From Minisyncoccota bacterium (GTDB lineage: Bacteria; Patescibacteriota; Minisyncoccia; Phycocordibacterales; UBA6065), in NCBI GenBank assembly GCA_035546035.1, contig DASZXC010000001.1:19538-83537 (forward strand): a DNA stretch of 64,000 nucleotides, read 5' to 3'. The translations under genes and the position numbers were made by a program. Below, piece by piece: positions 1-49,636 of the stretch. The notes beneath the pieces were generated by a model. It worked only from the letters and a program-made list of their open reading frames with translations. It was not told the DNA's origin and ran no database searches. Each line of letters opens with the position of its first letter. Within the stretch, counting starts at the first letter, position 1.

Positions 1-253
1 GTCTGAAAACGGAAAGGCGACATTGGTCGGAACTAAGACCTTCGGCAAGGGCTCCGTCCAGGAATTGGTCAACCTCACCCCTGACACGTCGCTCAAGGTC
101 ACCATCGCTAAATGGCTTACCCCGAACGGCAATTCGATATCCAAGCTCGGCATCACCCCCGACTATGTCGTAGAGCTCACCGATGCCGATATCAAGGCCA
201 ACCGCGACCCGCAGATGGACAAAGCCGTCGAGTTGCTTTCGAAGGAGCCATAG
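1..253 (+). CDS. C-terminal fragment of S41 carboxyl-terminal processing protease (5' end lies outside the window)
   Basis: Translation GTKTFGKGSVQELVNL matches the S41 peptidase catalytic-region motif TFGKGxVQ. The ORF is open to the window edge. Confidence 0.6.
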   Translation, partial: SENGKATLVGTKTFGKGSVQELVNLTPDTSLKVTIAKWLTPNGNSISKLGITPDYVVELTDADIKANRDPQMDKAVELLSKEP

Positions 254-291
254 GCTAACATCAAAGACCTAATACCAAACACAGCACGCAT

Positions 292-735
292 ATGAAGATA
301 GTACTCACCAAAGACGTAAAGGGCGTAGGGAAGAAGCACGACGTGAAGACCGTCGCCGACGGCTTCGCGTTGAACAGCCTCATTCCGCAGGGCGTAGCAG
401 AAGTCGCGACTGCCGGCGTCATGAAGCGCGTCGAGCTCGTCAAAAAGCAGGAAGCAGCGGAGAAAAAGGTCAAGGAAGACCTTCTCGCCAAAAACCTCAA
501 GTCCATCCACGACCAGGTCGTCGAAGTCGCCCTCGAGGCGAACGACAAGGGCCATCTCTTCGCCGGCCTTCATGCCGCCGAGATCGCTCCTTTGGTCAAA
601 GAGAAGACCGGCGTAGATATCCTCCCTGAATTCATCGTCCTCGATAAGCCTATCAAGGCGGTAGGGGAGCACGCCGTAGACATCAAAGTGCAGGGCAAAT
701 CAGCGACGTTCACATTGAAGGTCAGCGCGAAATAG
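292..735 (+). CDS. rplI: 50S ribosomal protein L9
   Basis: MKIVLTKDVKGVGKKHDVKTVADGFALNSLIPQG is the canonical L9 N-terminal domain; 147 aa. Confidence 0.9.
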   Translation: MKIVLTKDVKGVGKKHDVKTVADGFALNSLIPQGVAEVATAGVMKRVELVKKQEAAEKKVKEDLLAKNLKSIHDQVVEVALEANDKGHLFAGLHAAEIAPLVKEKTGVDILPEFIVLDKPIKAVGEHAVDIKVQGKSATFTLKVSAK

Positions 736-736
736 G

Positions 737-798
737 CCCCCGCATACAAATAAAAACACCCCGCCAAGCCCTGGGGTGTTTTTATTTGTATGCGGGGG
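737..798. terminator. Bidirectional intrinsic terminator, a long hairpin between convergent rplI and rpmA
   Basis: Perfect inverted repeat cccccgcatacaaataaaaacacccc / ggggtgtttttatttgtatgcggggg around the loop gccaagccct. A-tract on one side and T-tract on the other. The 42-nt core is identical to the copy at 26642-26683. Confidence 0.7.
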
Positions 799-808
799 CC
801 TCTCCCGG

Positions 809-1081
809 CTACTGAACGTGAACGACGTTCTTAACCTTCGTCCTGCCGTTGAAGCCGAGCATGCGCTTCGTGGAGTTCTTGATCCTGCCTTCGGCGGTAG
901 CGTAGATAGTGTAGTCCTTGCCGAGGGCCGTATTCTTGCCCGGAAGGGTATTGAGGCCCTCCTGGCGGATGATGATAGAGCCTACTTTAGCGACTTCGCC
1001 CGCGTAGAGCTTCACGCCGAGGTAGCGCGGGTTTGAATCGCGCCCGTTTTTTGTCGTTCCGGCTGATTTCTTTGTTGCCAT
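809..1081 (-). CDS. rpmA: 50S ribosomal protein L27
   Basis: MATKKSAGTTKNGRDSNPRYLGVKLYAGE...GKDYTIYA matches the L27 signature; 90 aa. Confidence 0.9.
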   Translation of the reverse strand: MATKKSAGTTKNGRDSNPRYLGVKLYAGEVAKVGSIIIRQEGLNTLPGKNTALGKDYTIYATAEGRIKNSTKRMLGFNGRTKVKNVVHVQ

Positions 1082-1174
1082 GGCTAAACTGGGATGTATT
1101 TACTAAGGCCATAAATATAGCCCAAGACCCCTTTTTAGTCAATACTAGGCCTAAAACAGGCCCGTCTTTCATGC

Positions 1175-1203
1175 TTGACAATCAGGTTTAGAGGTGCTAT
1201 AAT
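1175..1203 (+). promoter_or_regulatory. Consensus sigma-70-type promoter, TTGACA-17-TATAAT
   Basis: ttgaca at 1175-1180, 17-nt spacer, tataat at 1198-1203. It is oriented toward the plus-strand ORF at 1309. Confidence 0.55.
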
Positions 1204-1211
1204 AGACCTAC

Positions 1212-1242
1212 ATCAGAGTTCACCTCTGGTGATTTGTTTTTA
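1212..1242 (+). terminator. Possible leader attenuator hairpin with U-tract just downstream of the promoter
   Basis: atcagag-ttcac-ctctggt forms a 7-bp stem and is followed by gatttgttttt. It lies about 10 nt after the predicted start site and about 65 nt before the ORF. Confidence 0.3.
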
Positions 1243-1308
1243 AGGCTCTGCTTTCAAAGGCGCAAGCCGATAAGGCACTGAATTAAAGACTTTGAACCTA
1301 AACAACTT

Positions 1309-1740
1309 ATGATCGAGCTTACGACCAGCCTCCTCATGCTCGCTACCGCTTTCGTCTCGACGGGCGGCACGGCACCGGAAGCAACTACGACCGCTTCGAT
1401 CGAACGACCTCTCTCTACGCTCTCTACCGAAGCCTACGTCCGCGATTACTTCAAGGATACGCCTATACTGGCCGAAGTCGCGCGCTGCGAATCGACCTTC
1501 AGGCAGTTCGGCTCGGACGGCAACGTCATCAGGGGTAAGGTGAACAAAGACGACGTCGGCGTGATGCAGATCAACACCTATTATCACGAAGACACCGCCG
1601 AATCCCTCGGCCTCGACATCTACACCATTGACGGCAACCTTGCCTACGGCAAGCACCTCTACGAGAAGTTCGGCCTCGATCCATGGAAGAGCTCCTCGAA
1701 GTGCTGGAAGAAGTACCAGAAGGAGATCGCTCGAAGCTAA
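1309..1740 (+). CDS. Small secreted lytic transglycosylase-like (SLT/lysozyme-like) protein
   Basis: N-terminal hydrophobic segment, then CESTFRQF...GVMQIN...Y, which resembles the SLT family-1 catalytic Glu-Ser and the GLMQ(I/V) motif. GC3-rich codons support the plus-strand frame. Confidence 0.5.
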   Translation: MIELTTSLLMLATAFVSTGGTAPEATTTASIERPLSTLSTEAYVRDYFKDTPILAEVARCESTFRQFGSDGNVIRGKVNKDDVGVMQINTYYHEDTAESLGLDIYTIDGNLAYGKHLYEKFGLDPWKSSSKCWKKYQKEIARS

Positions 1741-1752
1741 GCGGCAAAACAG

Positions 1753-1789
1753 AAGCCCGCATATCCGATAAAGGATGTGCGGGCTTTTG
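1753..1789. terminator. Hairpin terminator between the convergent SLT-like gene and the methyltransferase gene
   Basis: aagcccgca...tgcgggctt stem followed by tttgg; the reverse strand also has a U-rich tail. Confidence 0.45.
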
Positions 1790-1793
1790 GCTA

Positions 1794-2423
1794 TCAGGGC
1801 CTTGTCGCCATCACGATGAAGTGATTGACCAGGCCCTGGCATTCGTGAGCGTATTTCATCTCCCTCTGTTCGCGGACGTCGACGATACGGAGGCTCGCAA
1901 GCCGCCGCTCGACGTCCACTCTCGAAGAGAAGGCGAGGTCAGACCAGAATTTCTTCACGAAATGGTCCGTCCCGATGAAGGTCGCGGCGAATACGCCGCC
2001 TGGAGCCAACGATCCGATGATGCGCCCGACGAGACTATCGAAGCCTTCGGTTCCATGGTACTGGAGCGAATGCTGAGCGAAGATCAGGTCGTATGGGCCG
2101 TCATCGAAACCGAAATCGCGGAAGAGGACCGGCTGGAGCATGAATCGGCCGAGGAACTCGTTCGCTAGAGCGGACGCATACGGCCTTACGGCCGTAGACG
2201 CGTCTACGGCGGTGACCGTGTCGGCGCCGTTCTCGAGGAAGAACCGGGCATCGGCGCAGGATCCAGGACCCAGCTCCAGAACGTGCGGGCACGGGCGCGT
2301 CCGCTTCGACAGGGCGAGGGAAGACCTGGCCAGGTCGGACGGAGGCTTGTTCCTGGTATTCCGGCAGTAGAGATGCCAATCTATGGACTCCGTCGGAGCC
2401 TTAGGAGCGGTCAGAGTATTCAT
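1794..2423 (-). CDS. Class I SAM-dependent methyltransferase
   Basis: VLELGPGSCADARFFLENGA looks like motif I (GxGxG) of a Rossmann-fold methyltransferase; 209 aa. Confidence 0.65.
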   Translation of the reverse strand: MNTLTAPKAPTESIDWHLYCRNTRNKPPSDLARSSLALSKRTRPCPHVLELGPGSCADARFFLENGADTVTAVDASTAVRPYASALANEFLGRFMLQPVLFRDFGFDDGPYDLIFAQHSLQYHGTEGFDSLVGRIIGSLAPGGVFAATFIGTDHFVKKFWSDLAFSSRVDVERRLASLRIVDVREQREMKYAHECQGLVNHFIVMATRP

Positions 2424-2576
2424 AGGCAGAAGAGGTTGTGGGGAGCTTTGAGGTTTCTAGACAAACTCTACACGAAGCGTGCCTTTATACAAGGCAGGGG
2501 GAATCTATATAGCCATGTCGCACAATATATCTTTTCGGCAATATGTATACAAATAAAGGATTCTTCGAGAATCTCG

Positions 2577-3242
2577 CTATGAGAACTGAACGGGCCTCTT
2601 CCATGCCCTATAGAGTTCGTTTAGATAGCTAAAGTTGTCGCCCTGGTTTACAAAAGCAAAAAGAGCAAAAGCATTCTCCTCTATCGTCTCTACCATGAGG
2701 TTTTTAATCGACTCCATTGCGGCAATATCGCGAAGATTGTATGTGATGACGTTTATGGAGAATTCTTCTAATGCGTTAAGCAGCTCGAGCTGGTGCGAGG
2801 CAACCTCTCTGTATACGCTCCTTTCCTTTCTATAGTGCTCGTAAGCTGACATGAAAGCCGTGTCTGATCTCAAGGCGGCAAAACCCTCTACGCTAAAATC
2901 ATACGCCGTTTTGGGCGTTATGTTACAGATAAGCGTCCTGCCGCCGGTACGAAGGGCGACTTCGAGATCGTTTGAGGTCCCTATGACCACTTCTCGATAG
3001 AATCTGATTTGAGACATAGCCATCTCAATCGTCTCTCGCGCTTTCCTTTGGGCGATGTCTTTATGCGTCATGAATACCTGGCTGAGACCTATGACGGCGC
3101 TGATCGCGATGAACGCATGAGAAAGAGACGCTACGATTTCCCATTCGATGTGCGAGCTTATGGCCGCGCCAAGCAGGATACCCGCTATCAGGGTGCAAAA
3201 AAGTCCAATTATTGTCTGAATAGTCGGTTCGACGTTCTGCAT
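2577..3242 (-). CDS. Hypothetical protein with an N-terminal 2-TM segment and a helical cytoplasmic domain, in a low-GC islet
   Basis: Two hydrophobic helices (IIGLFCTLIAGILLGAAI and FIAISAVIGLSQVFM), then about 150 aa with no recognisable motif. Local GC is about 48%, versus about 60% in the flanks. Confidence 0.45.
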   Translation of the reverse strand: MQNVEPTIQTIIGLFCTLIAGILLGAAISSHIEWEIVASLSHAFIAISAVIGLSQVFMTHKDIAQRKARETIEMAMSQIRFYREVVIGTSNDLEVALRTGGRTLICNITPKTAYDFSVEGFAALRSDTAFMSAYEHYRKERSVYREVASHQLELLNALEEFSINVITYNLRDIAAMESIKNLMVETIEENAFALFAFVNQGDNFSYLNELYRAWKRPVQFS

Positions 3243-3253
3243 TTTTGTGAAAG

Positions 3254-3568
3254 TTACTGTCCCAACGGTTGATATCCCTGATCGCCTGCATTCATCAGAC
3301 GTTGTCCGGCGCTCTGCAATTCGGTCGGAGCGCCCGCGTCTATGCGGCCCAGGTTATGCAAAAAGGCCTGCCAGAGGATGCCGAGGAAGATGTTGTTATA
3401 AAGATACAGGAGCGGTCCCTTTATATAGTTCCAGACGGTCGTAATGCCGCCCCATGCGTAATGGAGGTTGTTCTGGGTCAGCGGAGCGTCGATGATAGCG
3501 CGCAGATCGTAGCCGAAAAAGCTCAAAACGATGATCACGATGAGCGCAAGGATGACGTACTTGATCAT
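3254..3568 (-). CDS. Hypothetical small membrane protein
   Basis: N-terminal TM helix (ILALIVIIVLSFFGY), 104 aa, co-directional with and adjacent to the 2-TM gene. Confidence 0.4.
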   Translation of the reverse strand: MIKYVILALIVIIVLSFFGYDLRAIIDAPLTQNNLHYAWGGITTVWNYIKGPLLYLYNNIFLGILWQAFLHNLGRIDAGAPTELQSAGQRLMNAGDQGYQPLGQ

Positions 3569-3594
3569 GGCTAAATTATATCACGCCCTGCGCC

Positions 3595-4905
3595 CTAGAG
3601 CTTCGGCAGATATGCCATCGGGTCCAGATATGCGTTCGTCGGCGCAGCGACGGTCTTTATGCCTGCGCAGGTCTTTGACCCGAGGGCCGACGAGTCCACG
3701 ACGCGGATGCCTTCGCTCGCGTATACGCCGAAATGTAGGTGCGGGCCGGTGGCATAGCCGGTGTCGCCGCTATACCCGATCACATCCCCTGTTATGACCG
3801 TATCCCCCGGCTTTACCGATACGACCGACAGGTGGCCGTATATGGTCGAAAGGCCGTTCGGATGCCTGATGAGCACATATTTGCCGTACTGACAGCCGCT
3901 CTTGTATTTCAGAGGCTCCGTATCGGCGACGGTGCCCGACAATGCGGCCTTTACCGGAGTTCCGATAGAGGCGGCTAGGTCTATGCCGCCATGGGTGCCG
4001 GACACGTAAAGGCGCTTGGCCGCGACGGTCTTGCCGAAGTACTGGGTGATGCGGATGCTGTCCAAAGGCCAGGTCAGGATGCCGGCCTTGGCGTCGGGAA
4101 CCGCATTCGGGTCGAGCGTCACCTTCAATTGCGACTCATAGCTGAAGAGCTCCTTTTCATACGTCTCGCGCTCGGCGATCTTGTCCGCCAGTATCTTCTT
4201 GTATTCCGCCTCTTTGCCCGCCGTCGCAGTCAAAAGCTTGGACTTCTCGTCCTTCGTCGCCAGCACCGTCTGCTGCTGGCCTGCCAGATCCTTCTGGTAT
4301 GACTTCAATTTCGACTGCTCGCCCAATGCTTCGTCCTGCTTGGCATTCAAGAGCTCGTTCAGGTCGCTCAAGTCGTCATAGCGGTCTTTGACCTTGGTCC
4401 GGAGGCTCTGGACGGCGTTCACGTAGTCCCAGGTCGCCGAGATGTTCTTGTTGTTGAGCAGGTTCTCGATCGGCGACTGCGATTCGGCGAACGCGGTGTC
4501 GCGGATGGATTCGGCGATGGCTTTCGATGTCGCGGCGATCTTGATCTCCGTGTCCTCGATATCGTCGTCGAGCTGCTTCAGGGTCAGGCTGGTCTTCGAT
4601 ATCTTCTGGCTCGTCAGGGCCAAGTTCGTCTCAAGCTTCTTCTGGGTCAATTCGAGCGTCTTAAGGGCGCTTGAGAGCGTCTGGGCTTCCTTGGATGTCG
4701 AATTGAGGAGCGTCGAGTACTGGTCTATCTGCTTCTGGAGGTCCTGGATCTTCTGATTGTTCTCGGTGATCTTCGCGCGTATGTCGTCGGCAGAATCGGC
4801 TGCGGACGCGGGCGAAGCCGTCTCTATGCATAAGAACAAAAACGCGGCGCAGAACGCCACGGCGATGCTCGCGGTTTTTATATTACGGAAGCTGTGTTTT
4901 GGCAT
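3595..4905 (-). CDS. M23 family peptidase (LytM domain) with N-terminal signal/TM and a long coiled-coil, EnvC-like
   Basis: C-terminal GTHGGIDLAASIGTPV...GYSGDTGYATGPHLHFGVY contains the M23 HxxxD and HLH motifs. The Q/K/L-rich middle looks coiled-coil. Start is ATG at 4905 or TTG at 4941; either overlaps the gltX stop by 22-58 nt. Confidence 0.8.
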   Translation of the reverse strand: MPKHSFRNIKTASIAVAFCAAFLFLCIETASPASAADSADDIRAKITENNQKIQDLQKQIDQYSTLLNSTSKEAQTLSSALKTLELTQKKLETNLALTSQKISKTSLTLKQLDDDIEDTEIKIAATSKAIAESIRDTAFAESQSPIENLLNNKNISATWDYVNAVQSLRTKVKDRYDDLSDLNELLNAKQDEALGEQSKLKSYQKDLAGQQQTVLATKDEKSKLLTATAGKEAEYKKILADKIAERETYEKELFSYESQLKVTLDPNAVPDAKAGILTWPLDSIRITQYFGKTVAAKRLYVSGTHGGIDLAASIGTPVKAALSGTVADTEPLKYKSGCQYGKYVLIRHPNGLSTIYGHLSVVSVKPGDTVITGDVIGYSGDTGYATGPHLHFGVYASEGIRVVDSSALGSKTCAGIKTVAAPTNAYLDPMAYLPKL

Positions 4906-6355
4906 CGGCGCTCTTGCGTATAAGCCCCAGCGCCTCTTCAATACGTTTGAGGACGGCTTGTTTGCCTAATATCGAAGCGAGGGTGAAGGGGTTGGGCGAT
5001 CGGTCTTTTCCGGAAAGGGCATAGCGGAAGGGCCAGAGGACATTGCCCCTGCCCTCTTTCTCCGCATACGGCCATATCGCGGCCTTGATCCCCTCCTCAT
5101 TCCATTTCTTGTCGGGCAGAGAGGTCAGGGCCGCTTTTATGTAGTCGAGGTGCCTTGTCGCCGGCGCCAGGTCGGCATCGTCTTTCCATTTCAGCGATAA
5201 TGCGTCATACGTCGGCTCGGCGAAATAGTAATCGAGGTCCTGCGCATTTATGGACGCGTCTATGTCGCTGAACGCGCTCGCGCGCTCCATGAGTACAGGC
5301 GCGATCTTCTCCGCCATGGACGCCGTGATGTTCCAATGCAGGTCTTTGGCCCGATCGGACGATTCGACGCGCCGCTTTATCTCCGCCGCGAAAGCCGCCG
5401 GCGCCATGCGCTTTATATGCTCTTTATTGACCCAGCGGAGCTTCTCTTCGTTGAAGATCGCGCCGCCTTTCTGGACTTTCGACAGATCGAATGCTTTGAC
5501 GAGGCCGGCGCGGTCGAATATCTCCTGCTCGGTGCCCGGATTCCAGCCGAGGAGCGCCATGTAATTGAGGAGCGCGTCCGGCAGGTATCCGAGGTCGCGG
5601 TAATAGGTGATCGGCTTCGCTCCGTGGCGCTTAGAAAGCTTCGATCGGTCGTGGGCGAGGACGAGCGGCAGGTGCGCATACGTCGGCACAGGCGCGCCGA
5701 GAGCTTCTATGAGCAAAATCTGCCGCGGCGTATTCGAAATGTGGTCCTCGCCGCGCACCACGTGCGTTATGCCCATCAGATAGTCGTCGAGTATGACCGC
5801 GAAATGAAAGATAGGCTCCGTGACGCTCTTGGCGATGACGAAATCGCCGAGGTCGGTCGTGTCGAATTCGATGTCGCCCCTGATCAGGTCGTGGAAGCGG
5901 ACTTTTTTGTTCGGGTTTTTGAAGCGGATCACTGCGTTGCGCGGGCCGGGATTCTCGCTCTTGGCGGCGCGGGCGGTTTCGTTCTCGGCGCTTGAAACAT
6001 ACGCCTTCCCCTCCGCGATCAGTTTCTCCAGGTATTCGCGGTACAGCTCTCCCCTCTCTGACTGGCGGTACGTCGCGTCGTATTCGAGGCCGAGCCATGC
6101 CAGGCTTTCGATGATATTGTCCTCGTATTGTTTTTTCGATCGGGCCGCGTCGGTATCTTCGATGCGGAGTATGAACTTGCCGCCGTTCTGGCGGGCATAG
6201 AGGTATGAAAAGACCGCCGTGCGATAGTTGCCTGCGTGGAGAAGCCCCGTCGGCGAAGGCGCGAAGCGAGTGACTATTTTGGAGCCGTTCTTTGACCCAA
6301 AGCCGCCCTTGCATCCGAAATTAGCTCTGAAAAAGGCTCTGATTCCTGAGATCAT
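4883..6355 (-). CDS. gltX: Glutamyl-tRNA synthetase
   Basis: RFAPSPTGLLHAGNYRTAVF is the HIGH region and KLSKRHG is the KMSKS motif of class I GluRS. The exact start is uncertain (ATG at 6355 or 6373). Confidence 0.9.
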   Translation of the reverse strand: MISGIRAFFRANFGCKGGFGSKNGSKIVTRFAPSPTGLLHAGNYRTAVFSYLYARQNGGKFILRIEDTDAARSKKQYEDNIIESLAWLGLEYDATYRQSERGELYREYLEKLIAEGKAYVSSAENETARAAKSENPGPRNAVIRFKNPNKKVRFHDLIRGDIEFDTTDLGDFVIAKSVTEPIFHFAVILDDYLMGITHVVRGEDHISNTPRQILLIEALGAPVPTYAHLPLVLAHDRSKLSKRHGAKPITYYRDLGYLPDALLNYMALLGWNPGTEQEIFDRAGLVKAFDLSKVQKGGAIFNEEKLRWVNKEHIKRMAPAAFAAEIKRRVESSDRAKDLHWNITASMAEKIAPVLMERASAFSDIDASINAQDLDYYFAEPTYDALSLKWKDDADLAPATRHLDYIKAALTSLPDKKWNEEGIKAAIWPYAEKEGRGNVLWPFRYALSGKDRSPNPFTLASILGKQAVLKRIEEALGLIRKSADAKTQLP

Positions 6356-6423
6356 AGGCACATTATAGCACACCGCGGTGTCCGATCTGAGCTATTTTGG
6401 ACTGCGAAAACCGCCTCGCGAAC

Positions 6424-7551
6424 TTATTTGGAGTGCGTCAAAGCGATATCTATGATCTCGCGGGCGATCTTATCGGCCGCGTCGCGATGGGCGAACGATT
6501 CGGCGCCGGCGCGCATGGCGTCAGCGACTTCGGGCTTGTCTATGATGCGCTCGATCTCTGCCGCCAATACGTGCGGCGTCAGGTTCACCTCTTCTATGAC
6601 CGAACATCCTCCCGCCGCAGCATAGGCGAACGCGTTCGACGTCTGGTCGTGGCTGATCTCTTCCGGGATCGGAATGATGATCGCCGGCGCTTTCCAAAGC
6701 GCGATCTCGAATATGGTCGAGCCTGCGCGCGAGATGATCAGCGACGAAGCGCCTGCGGCCATGCGCAGCGCCAGCGCGTTCAGGTACGCGAACGGCTTGT
6801 ATCGGTCGCGGTGGATGCTTTCGTTCAGAATGACGCGCGACGTGTTGGTCATCTCGTCTATGTTGTCTTTACCCGTCTGGTGGATGACGTAATATCTTTT
6901 GACCAGATCAGGGAGGATGCCGATGATGGCCTCGTTTATCCTCTGCGAGCCCTGCGAGCCGCCCAAGATCAAAATCGTCGGAATGGTATCCTCGAGCTTC
7001 AGATATTCGCGGGCGCCTTCGCGGATTGGCTCGGCGATCTCCTTTCGCACCGGATTCCCGGTGAAAGCGACCTTGTCCGCGGGAAAATATGCGGCGGCTT
7101 CCTTGTACGACAGGGCGATTCTTTTCGCGAACTTCCCTGCCCACAGATTCACGCGGCCGGGGTGCGAATCCGATTCATGGATGACGACGGGAATGCCCAA
7201 GACGCGCGCGGCGAAAAGCACCGGGAACGACACATAGCCGCCCTTGCCGAAGACAACGTCGGGATATATCTGCCAGACGCGGGCGACGGCTTTCATGACG
7301 CCGACGGCGGTCTTGAGCGCGTCGGTGATATTCCAGAGCGAGAAATAGCGGCGCACTTTGCCCGCATACGAGCGCTCGAATATGATGCCGTTCTCGAACA
7401 GGGCGCGCTCGTCGTACTGCGACGGCGCCATGTAATACAAAGAAGCGTCGATGAGCTTCTCCGTCTTCGCTATCGCCCTGATTGACTGCGCTATGGCGAT
7501 GATGGGATAGAAATGCCCTCCCGTGCCGCCTCCCGTAAGCAGGATTTTCAT
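6424..7551 (-). CDS. murG: UDP-GlcNAc:undecaprenyl-PP-MurNAc-pentapeptide GlcNAc transferase
   Basis: MKILLTGGGTGGHFYP is the MurG N-terminal G-loop signature; 375 aa. Confidence 0.9.
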   Translation of the reverse strand: MKILLTGGGTGGHFYPIIAIAQSIRAIAKTEKLIDASLYYMAPSQYDERALFENGIIFERSYAGKVRRYFSLWNITDALKTAVGVMKAVARVWQIYPDVVFGKGGYVSFPVLFAARVLGIPVVIHESDSHPGRVNLWAGKFAKRIALSYKEAAAYFPADKVAFTGNPVRKEIAEPIREGAREYLKLEDTIPTILILGGSQGSQRINEAIIGILPDLVKRYYVIHQTGKDNIDEMTNTSRVILNESIHRDRYKPFAYLNALALRMAAGASSLIISRAGSTIFEIALWKAPAIIIPIPEEISHDQTSNAFAYAAAGGCSVIEEVNLTPHVLAAEIERIIDKPEVADAMRAGAESFAHRDAADKIAREIIDIALTHSK

Positions 7552-7583
7552 GGTTTTAGAATTGCGGTTATTTTATCACAGCT

Positions 7584-8687
7584 TTAGCGCCTCAAACGTG
7601 CCGTTCTCGAAATATTCAAAAGAATGCCGGATTCCGCCAACACGAACAGCAATGCGGTACCGCCCTGCGATACGAACAGCAGCGGCACGCCGGAGAGCGG
7701 CAAGACGCCCGCCATCGCGCCTATGTTCGTGAACGACTGGACGATGATGAACGTCGCTATGCCGACCGCCAACAGCGTGCCGAACTGGTTCTCCGCGGTC
7801 AGGGCGACTTTCAGCGTGCGCAGCGCGAAGAACACATAGAGGCCGAGCAATACCAGCCCGCCAATCAGGCCGAATTCTTCCGCCGCCACGGCGAATATCG
7901 AATCCCCCACCGGTTCAGGAAGATAGTTGAATTTCTGGATGCTCTGGCCGAAGCCGCGGCCGGCGATGCCCCCCGATCCTATGGCGATGAGCGACTGGTT
8001 GATCTGATATCCCGCCGCCTGGGTCGCGCCGCTCGGATCGAAGAACGTCTGTATGCGCGCCATGACGTACGGCCGCGAGAACGCCAGCAATGTCAGACCG
8101 ATCGCTCCCGCGGCGCCGAGAGACGCGATGTGCCGCCACTTGCCCCCTGCGGCGATGAACATGGCGACCAATGCCGAAGCGATGATCAGATACGTGTCGG
8201 TATCGGGCTGGAGGAGGCACAGGACCCCCGTCACGAAGAGCATGAAGCAGAGCGGAATGAATCCTTTTTTAAAATCGGACGCCTTGTCTTTGACGAAGGA
8301 AAGCCATGCGGCGAAATACATGACGGCTGCGATCTTCAGGACCTCTGATACCTGGAGCGAAAACGGGCCGATGATAAGCCATCGGACCGCGCCGCCGTGC
8401 CTTAATCCCAGGCCCGGTATGAAGATGGCGACGTTAAGGACGATGGCGAACAGGAAGAGCCAGAACGAGACTTTCCTCCAATGCATATGGTCTATGCGCG
8501 AAAACGCATAGAGGGCAAGGAGGCCCGGCACGAGTCCGAAAAATATTTGTTTAAAAGCGATCGAACCAAAATGGGCCGAGTCGCGCGCGAGGAGCCCGAG
8601 CGAGGCCGATAAGAATATAAGAAACCCGGCGACGATGAGGAGCCCGATCGCTACGAGGAGCCGCGTATCCATCCGATTCTTGCGCAT
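7584..8687 (-). CDS. ftsW: SEDS-family peptidoglycan glycosyltransferase FtsW/RodA
   Basis: 367-aa polytopic membrane protein with FtsW/RodA-like conserved blocks. Adjacent to murG, as in dcw clusters. Confidence 0.85.
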   Translation of the reverse strand: MRKNRMDTRLLVAIGLLIVAGFLIFLSASLGLLARDSAHFGSIAFKQIFFGLVPGLLALYAFSRIDHMHWRKVSFWLFLFAIVLNVAIFIPGLGLRHGGAVRWLIIGPFSLQVSEVLKIAAVMYFAAWLSFVKDKASDFKKGFIPLCFMLFVTGVLCLLQPDTDTYLIIASALVAMFIAAGGKWRHIASLGAAGAIGLTLLAFSRPYVMARIQTFFDPSGATQAAGYQINQSLIAIGSGGIAGRGFGQSIQKFNYLPEPVGDSIFAVAAEEFGLIGGLVLLGLYVFFALRTLKVALTAENQFGTLLAVGIATFIIVQSFTNIGAMAGVLPLSGVPLLFVSQGGTALLFVLAESGILLNISRTARLRR

Positions 8688-8699
8688 CTGCTCATGATA

Positions 8700-8996
8700 T
8701 CACGCGTCTGTGCGCGGCCGGTCGCGCATGTGTGCAAAAAGAAAGCCTCCGGGATTAAGATCCAGGAGGCATAGTCTAGAAGGTTTGGCCGAGAAGGATA
8801 ACTCGGTTACTCGCTTCGGGCGCAGATTGGAGAGCGCGCGGCGGATGCCGGGAGCTCGATCGATCGGCGGGGCGTGTGACGCACCGGACTCTGGAGGCTT
8901 CGCGCTTGGCGCGGTCGCTACCACAGTAACCCGACTCGCTTATTGGGAGGGACGGCTCGGAATACGGAACGAAGACATGTCTCTGTCTCTTTTTGG
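8700..8996 (+). ncRNA. rnpB: Candidate RNase P RNA (bacterial type A-like, reduced)
   Basis: The 370-bp gap between two minus-strand genes has no credible ORF. The plus strand contains GAAAGCCUCCGGG (compare GGAAAGUCCGGG, P4 5' strand), GGAGGCAUAG (compare CUCCAUAGGGCA), a GCGUGUGACGCACC hairpin (compare GCGGUAAGAGCGCACC) and ACAGUAACCCGACUCGCUUAU (compare ACAGAACCCGGCUUAU, P4 3' strand). It ends with a hairpin (agaca-ugucuc-ugucu) plus a U-tract at 8974-8996. The 5' end is not defined. Confidence 0.45.
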
Positions 8997-9055
8997 CGTT
9001 CCGCGAGCGGCGTCTTCAAATAGCTTAGTCTGGTATAAGTATAGCACCCCCTGTT

Positions 9056-12917: not shown

Positions 12918-13706
12918 ATGAAAAAACTACCTTCGATCGAAAGACTTGTTGTTGAAGAACCTAAAAAACCTTCTCTTGCCGGTCTATTTGCTCTTACGGG
13001 CGATCTATATGCGGCCGCAAAAATGGCAACTAAAGAAAAAGAACCCCTGTATTGTTGTCAGGTGCAGCTCTGCTTCCAAAGGCACTCTGATCTGGAGCGG
13101 ACCAGTCATGAAATCAAGAAGACCCTCTCCGATTCCGAGATCGACCCTCTTTGGAAAGCCGTATGCTGCATCGGCGCCAGCCAATGGGGAATTCTCGACG
13201 AGCTCATTGAGTACTCTAAAGACAAGCCGGATATTCTACGTTATCTCTGTGAAGATTTCGGCGGCAAGGAAGATCGGCATGTCTTTTCCCTAGGCATCGC
13301 TGCAGAGAATGAACAAATCGCTCAAACCGTCCTCGACCATCTTGTAGGGACCGGACACAGCTTTTTATCCCCCGAATTCATCGAGGCGATATTGAACAAG
13401 TATCCAACTCTGACACTCACAAAGCGTCAGAAAGATACTCTTATTCGCGAGGCGATCTCAGGCAGTCTATCGACCGAAGAAGTTGCCTTGTGTGAGAAAA
13501 TGGCAGGACGTAGCCTGACAAAAAGTCAACGGAAACGTTATGGTCAGAATCGTTTCCGGGATTTGGTCGATTGCGATGACGCTGTCGCGCCTGAATTCGT
13601 GTGGAACGAGCTCAAACGATCTCTTTCCCATCGCGAAAAGGGGCTGCTTCAAGTGGAACTCCAGAGAATGCTTGCGATCCTCGAGAGGAATCAGCCGCGA
13701 GTCTAG
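12918..13706 (+). CDS. Hypothetical helical protein in a low-GC plus-strand islet
   Basis: 262-aa ORF with its own terminator. AT-rich relative to its neighbours and on the opposite strand to every flanking gene. No recognisable motif. Confidence 0.5.
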   Translation: MKKLPSIERLVVEEPKKPSLAGLFALTGDLYAAAKMATKEKEPLYCCQVQLCFQRHSDLERTSHEIKKTLSDSEIDPLWKAVCCIGASQWGILDELIEYSKDKPDILRYLCEDFGGKEDRHVFSLGIAAENEQIAQTVLDHLVGTGHSFLSPEFIEAILNKYPTLTLTKRQKDTLIREAISGSLSTEEVALCEKMAGRSLTKSQRKRYGQNRFRDLVDCDDAVAPEFVWNELKRSLSHREKGLLQVELQRMLAILERNQPRV

Positions 13707-26509: not shown

Positions 26510-26552
26510 ACTAATGAAATCAGCGCGCCCAGTCAATAAATTTGCAACAAAA

Positions 26553-26582
26553 AGCCGCCCGTGTTACGGGGCAGGCGTACCT
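26553..26582 (-). terminator. Second weaker hairpin with U-tract upstream of grpE
   Basis: Minus strand reads ccccgu-aac-acggg followed by cggcttttt. Confidence 0.3.
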
Positions 26583-26636
26583 GAAATCCTTTCTTGTTTA
26601 TTGTTGATGAACCGAGCGCAAGGCGTACCTTAACCT

Positions 26637-26688
26637 CCAAAGCAAATAAAAACACCCCGCCAAGCCCTGGGGTGTTTTTATTTGCTTT
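26637..26688. terminator. Bidirectional intrinsic terminator after rpsI, second copy of the 42-nt hairpin module
   Basis: gcaaataaaaacacccc-gccaagccct-ggggtgtttttatttgc abuts the rpsI stop codon. The core is identical to 747-788. Confidence 0.7.
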
Positions 26689-26689
26689 G

Positions 26690-27115
26690 CTAGCGCTTGC
26701 TCCACTGAGGAGACTTGCGGGCCTTCTTGAGACCGAACTTCCTGCGCTCCTTTGCGCGGGGGTCTCGCTTGAGGAAGCCGAGCTTCTTGAGCTTCTTGCG
26801 GAGCTCGAGGTCGTAATCGAGGAGGGCACGGGAGATCGCGTGGCGGAGAGCCTCTGCCTGCGAGTGGATGCCGCCGCCCGAAAGGATAGCGGTGACCTTG
26901 AACTTCTGGGCGATCTTCGATTCTACGAAAGCAGCCTCGCCGATAGCCTGCATCTCGGCCGTGGCAAAATAGCCGGCGAGATCTTTCGTGACGCCATCAG
27001 AATTGGTGAGCTCGAACGACTGCTTTGCGGCAGGCGTGATGCGGGCGCGGGCGACTGCCGTCTTGCGTCGGCCGACCGCTTCGAAATATTTGGTTTTAGT
27101 CTCGGTTGCGTTCAT
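26690..27115 (-). CDS. rpsI: 30S ribosomal protein S9
   Basis: YFEAVGRRKTAVARA...GGGIHSQAEALRHAISRAL and a C-terminal KR-rich tail; 141 aa. Confidence 0.9.
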   Translation of the reverse strand: MNATETKTKYFEAVGRRKTAVARARITPAAKQSFELTNSDGVTKDLAGYFATAEMQAIGEAAFVESKIAQKFKVTAILSGGGIHSQAEALRHAISRALLDYDLELRKKLKKLGFLKRDPRAKERRKFGLKKARKSPQWSKR

Positions 27116-30439: not shown

Positions 30440-30556
30440 CTAGCCCTGGCGCTGCTTATGGCGTGGATTCGACTTGCACACGACGTACACGTAGCCCTTT
30501 CGACGGACTACCTTGCAATTCGCGCACTTTTTCTTTACTGATGATTTTACTCGCAT
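30440..30556 (-). CDS. rpmJ: 50S ribosomal protein L36 (38 aa; missing from the ORF track)
   Basis: Minus-strand translation [38 protein letters not shown] has the C-x2-C-x12-C-x4-H zinc-ribbon pattern of L36, between infA and rpsM as in the standard operon. Confidence 0.85.
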
Positions 30557-30569
30557 TTTGTTCGCTTTT

Positions 30570-30782
30570 TTACATCCTCTGAACGATCCTGCCCTTTCCT
30601 CCGTAGGGTTCGAGCTCCACTTTAACCTTGTCTCCGACGAGAACCCTGATGCGGTTCATCCTCATCTTGCCGGCGAGATACGTGAGTATCTGGTTGCCGT
30701 CTTCGAGCTCTACCCTGAAAAAGGTGTTCGGAAGGGCTTCGGTGACGACGCCCAGGACGCTTGGTTTGTTTTGATCTGCCAT
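30570..30782 (-). CDS. infA: Translation initiation factor IF-1
   Basis: [33 protein letters not shown] is the IF-1 S1-like fold signature; 70 aa. Confidence 0.9.
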
Positions 30783-30835
30783 TGAGAACGTGAAAAGCAG
30801 TATAGACTAATAATAGAGCCTTGTAAAGGCGAGGC

Positions 30836-49219: not shown

Positions 49220-49444
49220 CTACATCGTCGCAGGAGCCGACGACGACATGCATGCCTTGCAGTCCTTCTTGTGGGTGAAGAGGACGAGAAGGCCGGAGAG
49301 GCCTACAAGTATGTAGACGATCTTCTCAACGGCAGGCCAGCTGCCGAGGATCATGTTCACGAGGTTCCATCCGAGCGCGGTCAAGCCCCAGTTTACGGCG
49401 CCGACGACGACGAGGATGAAGGCGATCATGTGAAGTGCTTTCAT
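49220..49444 (-). CDS. DUF378-family small integral membrane protein
   Basis: AFILVVVGAVNWGLTALGWNLV matches the DUF378 GAxNWGLxG motif; 74 aa with 2 TM helices. Confidence 0.6.
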   Translation of the reverse strand: MKALHMIAFILVVVGAVNWGLTALGWNLVNMILGSWPAVEKIVYILVGLSGLLVLFTHKKDCKACMSSSAPATM

Positions 49445-49636
49445 GGTCTCAAAAGATATGTTGATAAAAATCCGCTGCGACTTTTACTCATCAATTATAT
49501 CAACTTGGCAAGAGTTTGGCGCGATAGAGTTATGCACAGAGTCTCGTCCTCCGTTCCCGCGCCCTAAACCATGAATCTTAGAGGACCGACGGCCTATAAA
49601 GCTAAGCCCCATATCCTTTTTGACAAGAAGATGGGG

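What the first reader, a model, noticed from the sequence alone, without database searches (positions are those of the whole stretch)
2577..3568. Low-GC two-gene islet encoding a 2-TM helical protein and a small membrane protein
Local GC drops to about 48% against about 60% in the flanks. The first gene (221 aa) has two N-terminal TM helices and a helical cytoplasmic domain of about 150 aa with no recognisable motif. That architecture is seen in membrane-disrupting effectors of abortive-infection or conflict systems, for example SLATT-like 2TM proteins. The second gene (104 aa) encodes one TM helix. The pair sits between a methyltransferase and an M23 peptidase gene and is unrelated to either. 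The compositional anomaly and the effector-like architecture suggest a horizontally acquired toxin/immunity or Abi-type pair.
Basis: inference. Interest (0 to 1): 0.5.

Follow-up and report, generated by a model that had tools for sequence, protein, structure and literature searches.

The report
Accessory membrane gene beside chromosomal dif site
The supposed two-gene islet is really one conserved core gene plus one foreign-looking membrane-protein gene of an uncharacterised family (DUF4760-like), wedged between that core gene and what looks like the chromosome's dimer-resolution (dif) site, so it is an ordinary accessory gene in a recombination hotspot and not a toxin/immunity pair.

Summary
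Both ORFs exist exactly as described (221 aa, 2577-3242; 104 aa, 3254-3568; minus strand), but they are not a unit.

The 104-aa gene is a conserved gene of this Paceibacterota lineage. It has 54 homologs at 55-79% identity and follows the M23 peptidase gene in all nine fetched relative loci (about six assemblies), in the block FtsW-MurG-GltX-M23-104aa. Its GC3 is typical of the host.

The 221-aa gene is the only anomalous one. It has the lowest GC of 63 genes in the window (47.7%, z -2.9) and is absent from all nine relative loci. The closest relative has the same arrangement without it.

It is a real protein: 44 distant homologs, and an AlphaFold model at pLDDT 90.6. It has a 1-2 TM N-terminal anchor plus an all-helical domain, and is a divergent relative of Pfam DUF4760 (hhalign 99.5%). 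It is not SLATT, has no PADLOC hit, has no conserved partner gene and has no solved structural relative. Its function remains inferred.

It abuts a 28-bp imperfect palindrome (2515-2542). The 19-nt core of that palindrome occurs in at least 120 CPR genome stretches, at the point where gene orientation and GC skew switch. Phage-like and inovirus-like elements are integrated there. This is most likely the dif site, which explains why this slot varies between genomes.

The parts
2577..3242 (-). 221-aa accessory gene. It encodes an N-terminal membrane anchor (hydrophobic segments 10-28 and 36-54), a long stalk helix and a C-terminal helical bundle. It is a divergent DUF4760-superfamily member. Conserved core: LLNxLEEFS (N156 and E159 invariant), VExNA (E188) and LYxxWK (L210, Y211, W214).
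   Evidence: ORF. Only itself found in the word-indexed search. 44 distant homologs by exhaustive phmmer. Alignment A1. AlphaFold pLDDT 90.6. hhalign to the DUF4760-like subgroup: 99.5%, E 1.9e-22, query residues 33-220. Lowest GC of 63 genes. Absent from L001-L009.
3254..3568 (-). 104-aa conserved small membrane protein of unknown function. It is a core gene of this Paceibacterota lineage, syntenic with and probably co-transcribed with the upstream M23 peptidase gene. It is not part of an islet.
   Evidence: 54 homologs at 55-79% identity. 16 invariant residues in 31 sequences. Always downstream of the M23 gene in L001-L009. GC3 z +0.2. TM segment 1-19. AlphaFold pLDDT 73.
3243..3253 (-). 11-nt spacer between the 104-aa stop and the 221-aa start. 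It has no terminator or promoter-like site. In the closest relative, L007, a strong intrinsic terminator follows the 104-aa gene instead.
   Evidence: Read-through transcription of the 221-aa gene is inferred, not shown.
2515..2542 (-). 28-bp imperfect palindrome ATTGCCGAAAA-GATATA-TTGTGCGACAT (11+6+11). It is a putative dif (Xer) chromosome-dimer resolution site and integration hotspot, 35 nt downstream of the 221-aa stop.
   Evidence: Unique in the window. Conserved in relatives. The 19-nt core is found in at least 120 CPR genome stretches, with consensus ATGTCGYAAAA GATATA TTGTGCGACAT. Gene orientation and GC skew switch at the site. The L006/L007 insertion junction lies at the site. Zot-encoding viral contigs carry the site.
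1794..2423 (-). Neighbouring class-I SAM methyltransferase gene (209 aa), on the other side of the dif-like site. It is present in L007 (67% identity) but absent from L001-L004 and L008, so it is a semi-conserved neighbour and not linked to the 221-aa gene.
3595..4941 (-). M23 peptidase gene with an N-terminal coiled-coil region (EnvC-like architecture, inferred). It is the last large gene of the conserved FtsW-MurG-GltX-M23 block and the constant upstream partner of the 104-aa gene.
   Evidence: Pfam Peptidase_M23, E 9.9e-29. Synteny.

Best explanation
The region is not a two-gene islet.

The 104-aa gene is a vertically inherited, strongly conserved small membrane-protein gene. It belongs with the upstream M23 (EnvC-like) peptidase gene at the end of the cell-wall/division block FtsW-MurG-GltX-M23.

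The 221-aa gene alone is accessory. It encodes a protein anchored in the membrane by one or two N-terminal helices. Its roughly 165-residue all-helical domain probably faces the cytoplasm; this is inferred from the K/R-rich stretch after TM2. It is a divergent member of the uncharacterised DUF4760 superfamily.

The gene lies in the short slot between the last core gene and a 28-bp dif-like recombination site, at the point where the two replichores' genes converge. In other genomes this slot is empty or holds unrelated genes, and whole phage-like or inovirus-like elements are integrated at the site.

The most likely history (inferred) is that the gene is leftover cargo of an element that integrated at dif. 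It now rides on read-through transcription from the 104-aa gene, whose terminator it replaced.

The most likely function (inferred, about 0.3) is a stand-alone membrane-associated conflict or exclusion protein, rather than housekeeping. It acts without a dedicated partner gene.
For: Shown:
- ORFs and composition.
- The 104-aa family is conserved and syntenic with M23 in L001-L009.
- L007 has 104aa-terminator-site-methyltransferase-151aa-L27, which is the window's arrangement minus the 221-aa gene.
- Slot occupants differ and are unrelated. L001 has a 212-aa gene followed by the site. L003 and L008 have none. L004 has a tyrosine recombinase.
- The 221-aa family is real but patchy: 44 hits at 22-36% identity among 1.84 billion representatives, and it is always solitary in eight different contexts.
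- Link to DUF4760: P0085 scores 29 bits against a 25-bit cut-off over profile positions 2-138 of 141, and hhalign gives 99.5%.
- Confident helical model with no solved or viral structural relative.
- The dif-like site has 11+6+11 architecture and its 19-nt core is found in at least 120 CPR genome stretches.
- Oriented by the motif, coding is 89% on the forward strand to the left and 15% to the right (p 1.4e-9). GC skew is +0.050 to the left and -0.088 to the right (p 1e-12).
- L006 and L007 are identical for 6,437 nt and then diverge at the site into phage-like genes.
- 16 of 46 site-bearing viral contigs encode a Zot-like ATPase.
- There is no terminator or promoter between the two genes.
Against: - No second (pseudo-)dif copy flanks the 221-aa gene, so the claim that it is a remnant of a dif-integrating element is unproven.
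- The family is absent from all 166 other site-bearing loci, 1.23 Mb in total, so it is not recurrent dif cargo.
- One homolog (P0061, 28% identity) sits in the same FtsW-MurG-GltX-M23 block in a distant lineage, which also fits old vertical descent with losses.
- GC3 deviates only moderately (z -1.5). Part of the low GC may reflect amino-acid composition.
- No defence-database hit for the query. Only two isolated weak hits among 40 members.
- Defence-type neighbours (EVE, TIR/caspase, an R-M-like module) occur in 3 of 8 contexts and were not tested statistically.
- No Xer gene lies in the 64-kb window. Site function and single-copy status per genome could not be tested.
- GC skew in this particular window is weak and of opposite sign to the usual pattern.
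Confidence: 0.6

Rival explanations
1. One reading: a horizontally acquired two-gene toxin/immunity or Abi pair. The 221-aa protein would be a SLATT-like 2TM membrane-disrupting effector and the 104-aa protein its partner.
For: The genes are adjacent, co-oriented and only 11 nt apart. The 221-aa protein has a 2-TM N-terminus. There is a sub-threshold DUF4231 hit at E 0.71 over the TM region. One family member has a weak PADLOC 2TM_IV hit at E 0.0024.
Against: The 104-aa gene is conserved and syntenic without the 221-aa gene in all nine relative loci. The 221-aa family occurs without it in eight contexts. The 104-aa gene's GC3 is host-typical. No SLATT family hit in 40 members, and no PADLOC hit for either protein. 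The second TM is not conserved in the family.
Confidence: 0.04
2. The 221-aa gene is an old, vertically inherited but fast-evolving envelope-associated gene of the FtsW-MurG-GltX-M23 neighbourhood. It has been lost in most relatives and has a housekeeping or cell-envelope role, not a conflict role.
For: Homolog P0061 lies downstream of M23 in the same block in a distant lineage, where core proteins are 38-49% identical and the homolog is 28% identical. The protein is membrane-anchored, beside cell-wall genes, and apparently co-transcribed with the 104-aa gene. There are no defence-database hits.
Against: It is absent from all nine relative loci that share 70-80% nucleotide identity in the flanks. 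It has the lowest GC in the window, and P0061 is also low against its own locus, 40% versus 48%. The other six contexts are unrelated: after dnaN, beside an R-M-like module, and among hypothetical genes. Distribution across 1.84 billion representatives is very patchy.
Confidence: 0.15
3. The 221-aa protein is a stand-alone anti-phage or anti-element effector, of the abortive-infection or superinfection-exclusion type. It would act at the membrane, independently of how it reached the dif-adjacent slot.
For: The gene is solitary, fast-diverging and patchily distributed. It sits at an integration hotspot. Homologs occur near an EVE protein, near ThsB-TIR plus caspase, and beside an N6_N4 methyltransferase with nucleases. 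A DUF4760 protein is listed on a Serratia genomic island beside integrases (PMC9964261). There is a weak PHROG hit at E 0.0067. Roux et al. 2019 report that inovirus hypothetical proteins can give superinfection exclusion (PMC6813254).
Against: No experimental data exist for any DUF4760 member in the searchable literature. No PADLOC hit. No phage or plasmid relatives. The neighbourhood evidence is anecdotal.
Confidence: 0.3
4. The 221-aa ORF is not a real gene, only a chance ORF in AT-rich spacer DNA.
For: It is an orphan in the word-indexed search. Its composition is atypical. There is no obvious Shine-Dalgarno sequence upstream.
Against: 44 full-length homologs down to E 8.8e-18 share conserved motifs. 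The AlphaFold model has pLDDT 90.6. It is annotated in the source MAG as VHE10_00085.
Confidence: 0.01

Closest known systems
Pfam DUF4760 (PF15956), an uncharacterised family
   Same: It shares an N-terminal TM helix followed by a roughly 140-residue helical domain. A member of the homolog set (P0085) passes the Pfam threshold over profile positions 2-138 of 141. The query's subgroup aligns to that subgroup at 99.5% hhalign probability over residues 33-220.
   Different: The query itself does not hit the Pfam model. It has an extra N-terminal TM helix and an inserted variable loop at about residues 100-117. The family has no known function, so membership gives no mechanism.
   Same: Two N-terminal TM helices followed by a helical cytoplasmic region. 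What defines SLATT, and DUF4231's place in that clan, is my recollection and was not tested here.
   Different: There is no significant HMM match (DUF4231 at E 0.71, and none in 40 relatives). No nucleotide-signalling or other partner gene is adjacent. The 2TM feature is not conserved in the family.
dif/XerCD chromosome-dimer resolution sites and the IMEX elements that integrate there (for example CTX-phi at Vibrio dif; single-recombinase difSL/XerS and difH/XerH)
   Same: For the neighbouring 28-bp element: 11-6-11 imperfect palindrome, an AT-rich centre, one copy per contig, location where gene orientation and GC skew switch, and integrated inovirus-like (Zot) and phage-like elements abutting it. 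The comparison with canonical dif sequences rests on established knowledge.
   Different: The sequence differs from proteobacterial and firmicute dif. The recombinase was not identified and is not site-adjacent. Activity is untested. The 221-aa gene is next to the site but is not flanked by two sites.
Membrane-anchored prophage exclusion or abortive-infection proteins such as SieB
   Same: A small N-terminally membrane-anchored helical protein, encoded singly in an accessory or mobile-element context. This is a resemblance from memory only.
   Different: No sequence or profile similarity was detected. This is an analogy of architecture and context, not membership.

Membership tests
DUF4760 (PF15956) | The protein matches the Pfam HMM at or above the gathering score (25 bits) | tested here: not met
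   The query has no DUF4760 hit at E <= 1. Two of 40 homologs hit it; P0085 scores 29 bits, above the cut-off, and P0069 scores 17.8 bits.
DUF4760 (PF15956) | Homology to bona fide members over the whole domain (superfamily level) | tested here: met
   hhalign of A3 (query subgroup) against A4 (the subgroup containing P0085): probability 99.5%, E 1.9e-22, 186 columns, query residues 33-220. phmmer of the query against P0085 gives E 2e-4.
DUF4760 (PF15956) | Architecture: an N-terminal TM helix followed by a helical domain of about 140 residues | tested here: met
   Hydropathy, AlphaFold model, and the P0085 match, which starts in the TM helix.
SLATT / DUF4231 2TM effectors | Significant match to a SLATT-clan profile | tested here: not met
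   DUF4231 at E 0.71 and 10.8 bits against a 24.7-bit cut-off, over the TM region only. No SLATT family appears among the families hit by 40 members at E <= 0.1.
SLATT / DUF4231 2TM effectors | Fusion to, or operon with, a signal-generating or sensor partner (SMODS, SLOG, TIR, reverse transcriptase and the like) | tested here: not met
   The window's neighbours are core genes and a SAM methyltransferase. The homologs are solitary; a TIR gene in L012 is 6 kb away and not adjacent.
Two-gene toxin/immunity or Abi pair | The two genes co-occur across genomes | tested here: not met
   The 104-aa gene is present without a 221-aa homolog in L001-L009. The 221-aa family is present without the 104-aa gene in L010-L014 and L181-L184.
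Known or candidate anti-phage defence proteins (PADLOC-DB v2) | Match to a defence-system protein model | tested here: not met
   No hit for either protein at E <= 10. Among 40 family members there is one hit each to PDC-M02B (4.6e-4) and 2TM_IV (2.4e-3), and none in 10 re-tested members.
dif (Xer) site, for the neighbouring 28-bp element | About 28 bp, with two roughly 11-bp inverted arms around a 6-8-bp centre | tested here: met
   Consensus ATGTCGYAAAA GATATA TTGTGCGACAT from 120 genome stretches. The window version is ATTGCCGAAAA GATATA TTGTGCGACAT.
dif (Xer) site, for the neighbouring 28-bp element | Located at the replication terminus (skew and gene-orientation switch) | tested here: met
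   In 50 loci, coding on the forward strand is 89% to the left and 15% to the right (p 1.4e-9). GC skew changes from + to - in 33 of 50 (p 1e-12). Position relative to oriC in complete genomes could not be measured.
dif (Xer) site, for the neighbouring 28-bp element | Single copy per chromosome | tested here: inconclusive
   Unique in the 64-kb window, and one exact 19-mer match in each of the 80 stretches listed. Whole genomes were not available to the tools.
dif (Xer) site, for the neighbouring 28-bp element | Bound and recombined by Xer tyrosine recombinase(s) | not testable with these tools
   No Xer-like ORF in the window. Only 4 of 120 loci have a tyrosine recombinase within the 8-kb piece.
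IMEX-type integration at dif | Mobile elements integrated exactly at the site, with presence/absence polymorphism | tested here: met
   L006 and L007 are identical for 6,437 nt and diverge at the end of the site into genes with Collar/Gp10_C and Amidase_2 domains. 15 of 45 viral contigs carry the full site, and 16 of 46 encode a Zot-like ATPase.

The most novel reading that the evidence does not exclude
The DUF4760-like family may be a previously unrecognised class of stand-alone, membrane-anchored exclusion or abortive-infection proteins used by ultra-small CPR bacteria. The copy here would have been delivered by an element that integrates at a CPR-wide dif site. That 28-bp site has a 19-nt core found across the superphylum. 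It would then be the landing pad for the inovirus-like and phage-like elements of these organisms, and a marker for finding their termini and mobile cargo in fragmented MAGs.
Probability: 0.2. Interest if true: 0.55.

Novelty: new member of a known kind. Interest (0 to 1): 0.3.

Why it matters
For the finding itself, little changes. It adds a divergent, CPR-associated branch to an uncharacterised family (DUF4760) and removes a false toxin/immunity call.

The context is more useful. A 28-bp dif-like site has a 19-nt core that recurs across Paceibacterota, Saccharibacteria and other CPR groups. It gives a simple marker for the replication terminus and for integrated elements in fragmented MAGs. 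It also explains why the gene content right next to it varies.

I found no description of a dif site for CPR/Patescibacteria in the searchable literature. Inoviruses in CPR have already been reported (PMC6813254).

Tried and rejected
- Word-indexed homology search for the 221-aa protein found only itself. With the family alignment it found only 3 proteins because the candidate list saturated.
- The search for related loci with the family alignment failed because no stretch was conserved enough.
- The AFDB50 fold library was not available.
- A profile search of PDB sequences gave only chance-level hits.
- tblastn of the query and of P0085 against the phage and plasmid collections found no match.
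- An Rfam scan of 1-9000 and tRNA scans were negative, so the conserved element is not a known RNA or a tRNA attachment site.
- A promoter reading of the conserved element was considered and dropped. The hexamer spacing does not fit, conservation is palindromic, and conservation does not extend downstream.
- A HEPN reading was considered because one member has a weak HEPN hit at E 0.024. It was dropped because no conserved Rx4-6H motif exists, and the semi-conserved His is Ile in the query.
- A PWM search for a second, degenerate dif copy flanking the 221-aa gene found none.
- A test for a site-adjacent Xer gene, as in XerS or XerH systems, was negative.
- An HMM search for the 221-aa family in 166 site-bearing loci found none.
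- The 104-aa AlphaFold model was too uncertain (pTM 0.33) to justify a fold search.
- Literature searches for DUF4760 and PF15956 gave only one incidental table entry.
Full report
**Observation**

They are flanked by a class-I SAM methyltransferase gene (1794-2423) and an M23 peptidase gene (3595-4941).

The GC dip is real. It is 0.43-0.50 over about 2400-3300, against 0.57-0.64 in the immediate flanks and 0.559 for the window. Gene by gene, it belongs to one gene only.
- The 221-aa gene has the lowest GC of 63 genes in the window: 47.7%, z -2.9, GC3 0.57, z -1.5.
- The 104-aa gene is host-like in GC3: 0.70, z +0.2.

**The 104-aa gene is a core gene**

It has 54 homologs at 55-79% identity in Paceibacterota, Taylorbacteria and related MAGs, with 16 invariant residues among 31 aligned sequences.

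In all nine fetched relative loci (about six distinct assemblies) it lies directly downstream of the M23 peptidase gene, at the end of the block S11 peptidase-FtsW-MurG-GltX-M23-104aa. In L006 and L007 an extra 88-aa gene sits between M23 and the 104-aa gene. On the far side come a conserved roughly 145-aa protein, L27, L9, an S41 peptidase, CorA and CysS.

Its function is unknown. It has one N-terminal TM segment and a three-helix model of moderate confidence (pLDDT 73, pTM 0.33).

**The 221-aa gene is accessory**

None of the relative loci has a homolog. The closest relative, L007, has flanks 78-80% identical at the nucleotide level and core proteins 80-91% identical. It shows 104aa, an intrinsic terminator, a conserved element, the methyltransferase, a 151-aa gene and L27. 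That is the window's arrangement minus the 221-aa gene.

In the window the gene starts 11 nt after the 104-aa stop. No terminator or promoter-like site lies between them. It has therefore replaced the terminator and is probably read through from upstream; this is inferred.

The same slot differs between genomes. It holds an unrelated 212-aa gene in L001 and a tyrosine recombinase in L004, and it has no gene in L003 and L008.

**What the 221-aa protein is**

The word-indexed search found only itself, a hypothetical protein of a Candidatus Paceibacterota MAG. The exhaustive HMMER search of 1.84 billion representatives found 44 relatives at 22-36% identity and similar length.

The alignment shows a conserved C-terminal core:
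- LLNxLEEFS, with N156 and E159 invariant;
- VExNA, with E188;
- LYxxWK.

AlphaFold with this alignment gives a confident all-helical model (pLDDT 90.6, pTM 0.79). It has a TM hairpin (7-29, 34-58), with the second helix continuing as a long stalk to residue 99. A variable loop follows, then a helical bundle at 118-218. The K/R-rich stretch after TM2 suggests that the domain is cytoplasmic; this is inferred.

About half of the relatives have only one hydrophobic segment, so 2TM is not a family trait.

Two relatives hit Pfam DUF4760, one of them above the gathering score and over nearly the whole profile. A profile of the query's subgroup aligns to a profile of that subgroup with 99.5% probability (E 1.9e-22, query residues 33-220). 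The protein is therefore a divergent DUF4760-superfamily member that lies outside the current Pfam model.

Everything else was negative or marginal.
- The query matches no family in Pfam, NCBIfam or PADLOC, nor any PHROG, at a curated cut-off or a convincing E-value. The only SLATT-related signal is DUF4231 at E 0.71.
- There are no phage or plasmid relatives.
- The literature holds essentially nothing on DUF4760. The single mention is a gene on a Serratia genomic island near integrases.

**Contexts of the family**

Eight contexts were read:
- this window;
- beside an EVE-domain gene;
- after dnaA-dnaN;
- among small hypothetical genes, 6 kb from a ThsB-TIR plus caspase pair;
- among hypothetical genes (two contexts);
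- beside an N6_N4 methyltransferase with nucleases;
- downstream of M23 in the same FtsW-MurG-GltX-M23 block of a distant lineage. Core proteins there are 38-49% identical, and the homolog is 28% identical and again low in GC, 40% against 48%.

There is no conserved partner and no paralog in the window. This pattern fits an accessory, probably conflict-related gene, but it does not prove one. The recurrence next to M23 keeps a vertical, fast-evolving reading alive at about 0.15.

**The neighbouring element**

Thirty-five nucleotides downstream of the 221-aa stop lies a sequence that is conserved in the relatives' intergenic DNA. It is unique in the window and is neither a tRNA nor a known RNA.

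Every stretch listed had one match. They include Paceibacterota, Saccharibacteria, Moranbacteria, Nomurabacteria, Kaiserbacteria, Zambryskibacteria, Campbellbacteria, Harrisonbacteria and Minisyncoccia.

The extended consensus is ATGTCGYAAAA-GATATA-TTGTGCGACAT, a 28-bp imperfect palindrome of 11+6+11. This is the architecture of dif/Xer sites as known from established work. The window's copy (2515-2542) has a variant left arm, which its closer relatives share.

In 50 loci with at least 2.5 kb on each side, oriented by the motif:
- coding is 89% on the forward strand to the left and 15% to the right (p 1.4e-9);
- the nearest genes converge in 35 of 50;
- GC skew changes from + to - in 33 of 50 (p 1e-12).

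This is terminus behaviour.

L006 and L007 are 100% identical for 6,437 nt and then diverge exactly at the end of the site. L006 continues into genes with tail-fibre and amidase domains.

Of 46 IMG/VR contigs with the 16-mer, 15 of the 45 that could be scored carry the full left arm. Sixteen of the 46 encode a homolog of a Zot-type assembly ATPase (Pfam Zot, 23 bits against a 20.3-bit cut-off). In L020 a host-like gene is followed by the site and then the element.

This is the IMEX pattern. Inoviruses in CPR are already reported (PMC6813254). I found no description of the CPR dif site.

Points that could not be settled:
- recombinase identity (none in the window; rarely site-adjacent);
- copy number per genome;
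- distance from oriC.

In this particular window the GC skew is weak and of the opposite sign, although the gene-orientation switch is as expected.

**Synthesis**

The 221-aa gene lies on the left-arm side of the single functional-looking site. That is where remnants of an integrated element would be left if the outer hybrid site decayed. L001 shows the same geometry with an unrelated gene.

Two results argue against calling it dif cargo. There is no second site around the 221-aa gene, and the family is absent from 166 other site-bearing loci. Delivery by a dif-integrating element is therefore a reasonable inference, at about 0.4, and not a result.

**Verdict**

- The pair, toxin-immunity and SLATT interpretations are not supported.
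- The horizontal-acquisition idea is supported for the 221-aa gene only.
- The gene is a new, divergent member of a known but uncharacterised family.
- Its mechanism is unknown. My best guess, at about 0.3, is a stand-alone membrane-anchored exclusion or Abi-like protein.
- The more interesting by-product is the CPR-wide dif-like site and the elements integrated at it.

Noticed in passing
window 2515-2542 (- strand); also L001 7042-7075, L003 6548-6581, L007 6408-6441, L008 6572-6605, L061-L180: A 28-bp imperfect palindrome, consensus ATGTCGYAAAA GATATA TTGTGCGACAT. Its 19-nt core is found in at least 120 CPR/Patescibacteria genome stretches, one match in each listed stretch. It sits where gene orientation and GC skew switch, so it is a putative dif site for the whole superphylum. 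I found no description in the searchable literature.
   Followed up: partly
L006 6438-12315 versus L007 (same 104-aa protein, two sequencing runs): The two contigs are 100% identical for 6,437 nt and then diverge exactly at the end of the dif-like site. L006 continues with phage-like genes (Collar/Gp10_C tail fibre, Amidase_2, several unknown). This is a presence/absence polymorphism of an element integrated at the site. The far junction lies beyond the contig end.
   Followed up: partly
L016-L059 (IMG/VR contigs, mostly 4-11 kb), for example L020 1246-1261 and 3824-4639: Fifteen of 45 viral contigs that carry the 16-mer also have the complete left arm. Sixteen of 46 encode a Zot-like assembly ATPase (Pfam Zot above threshold) with small hydrophobic proteins. 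These are inovirus-like elements at, or carrying, the CPR dif-like site (IMEX-type). Some contigs have two copies (L049, L056).
   Followed up: partly
L001 6392-7030 (+): An unrelated 212-aa gene with no Pfam hit occupies the same slot as the 221-aa gene in another Paceibacterota genome, between the 104-aa gene and the dif-like site and in the same orientation. Its nature was not determined.
   Followed up: partly
L004 6387-7364 (+): A 325-aa tyrosine recombinase (Phage_int_SAM_1/4 plus Phage_integrase, Xer-like architecture) sits in the same slot in another relative. No dif-like site was detected anywhere in that 12-kb locus.
   Followed up: partly
L181 6001-6747 and L182 3494-4240: A 28%-identical homolog of the 221-aa protein (P0061) lies downstream of the same FtsW-MurG-GltX-M23 block in a distant lineage, after two pilin-like (N_methyl) genes. 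It is again lower in GC than its surroundings. This could be coincidence, a shared hotspot or old vertical descent; it is unresolved.
   Followed up: partly
window 3254-3568 (-) and homologs P0002-P0055: The 104-aa small membrane protein is unusually well conserved for its size (16 invariant residues, 63-79% identity for all but one homolog) and always follows the EnvC-like M23 peptidase gene. It has no family assignment. It may be a partner or regulator of that peptidase in Paceibacterota.
   Followed up: partly
L006 and L007 5682-5948 (+): An 88-aa gene with an RNA_pol_A_CTD hit is inserted between the M23 gene and the 104-aa gene in these relatives. It is absent from the window.
   Followed up: no
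window 1794-2423 (-): The SAM methyltransferase next to the dif-like site is present in L007 (67% identity, lower than the 80-91% of core neighbours) but absent from L001-L004 and L008. The other side of the site is therefore also variable.
   Followed up: partly
window 12918-13706 (+), 30513-30785 (+), 49271-49567 (+), 26533-26829 (-): Other genes in the window have low GC and especially low GC3 (0.50-0.54 against a mean of 0.69). They are candidate further accessory genes and were not examined.
   Followed up: no
window 1-64000: About three quarters of genes are on the minus strand, and orientation switches near 1.8-2.5 kb as expected for a terminus. GC skew on the plus strand is weakly positive to the right of the site, however, which is opposite to the pattern in most other CPR loci. 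In this 56%-GC genome the skew seems dominated by coding-strand composition.
   Followed up: partly
window 1309-1740 (+): A conserved 143-aa protein (57-61% identical in L001, L002 and L004; 86% in L007) has an N-terminal hydrophobic segment and a sub-threshold SLT lytic transglycosylase hit (E 0.094). It is the first core gene on the far side of the variable slot.
   Followed up: no
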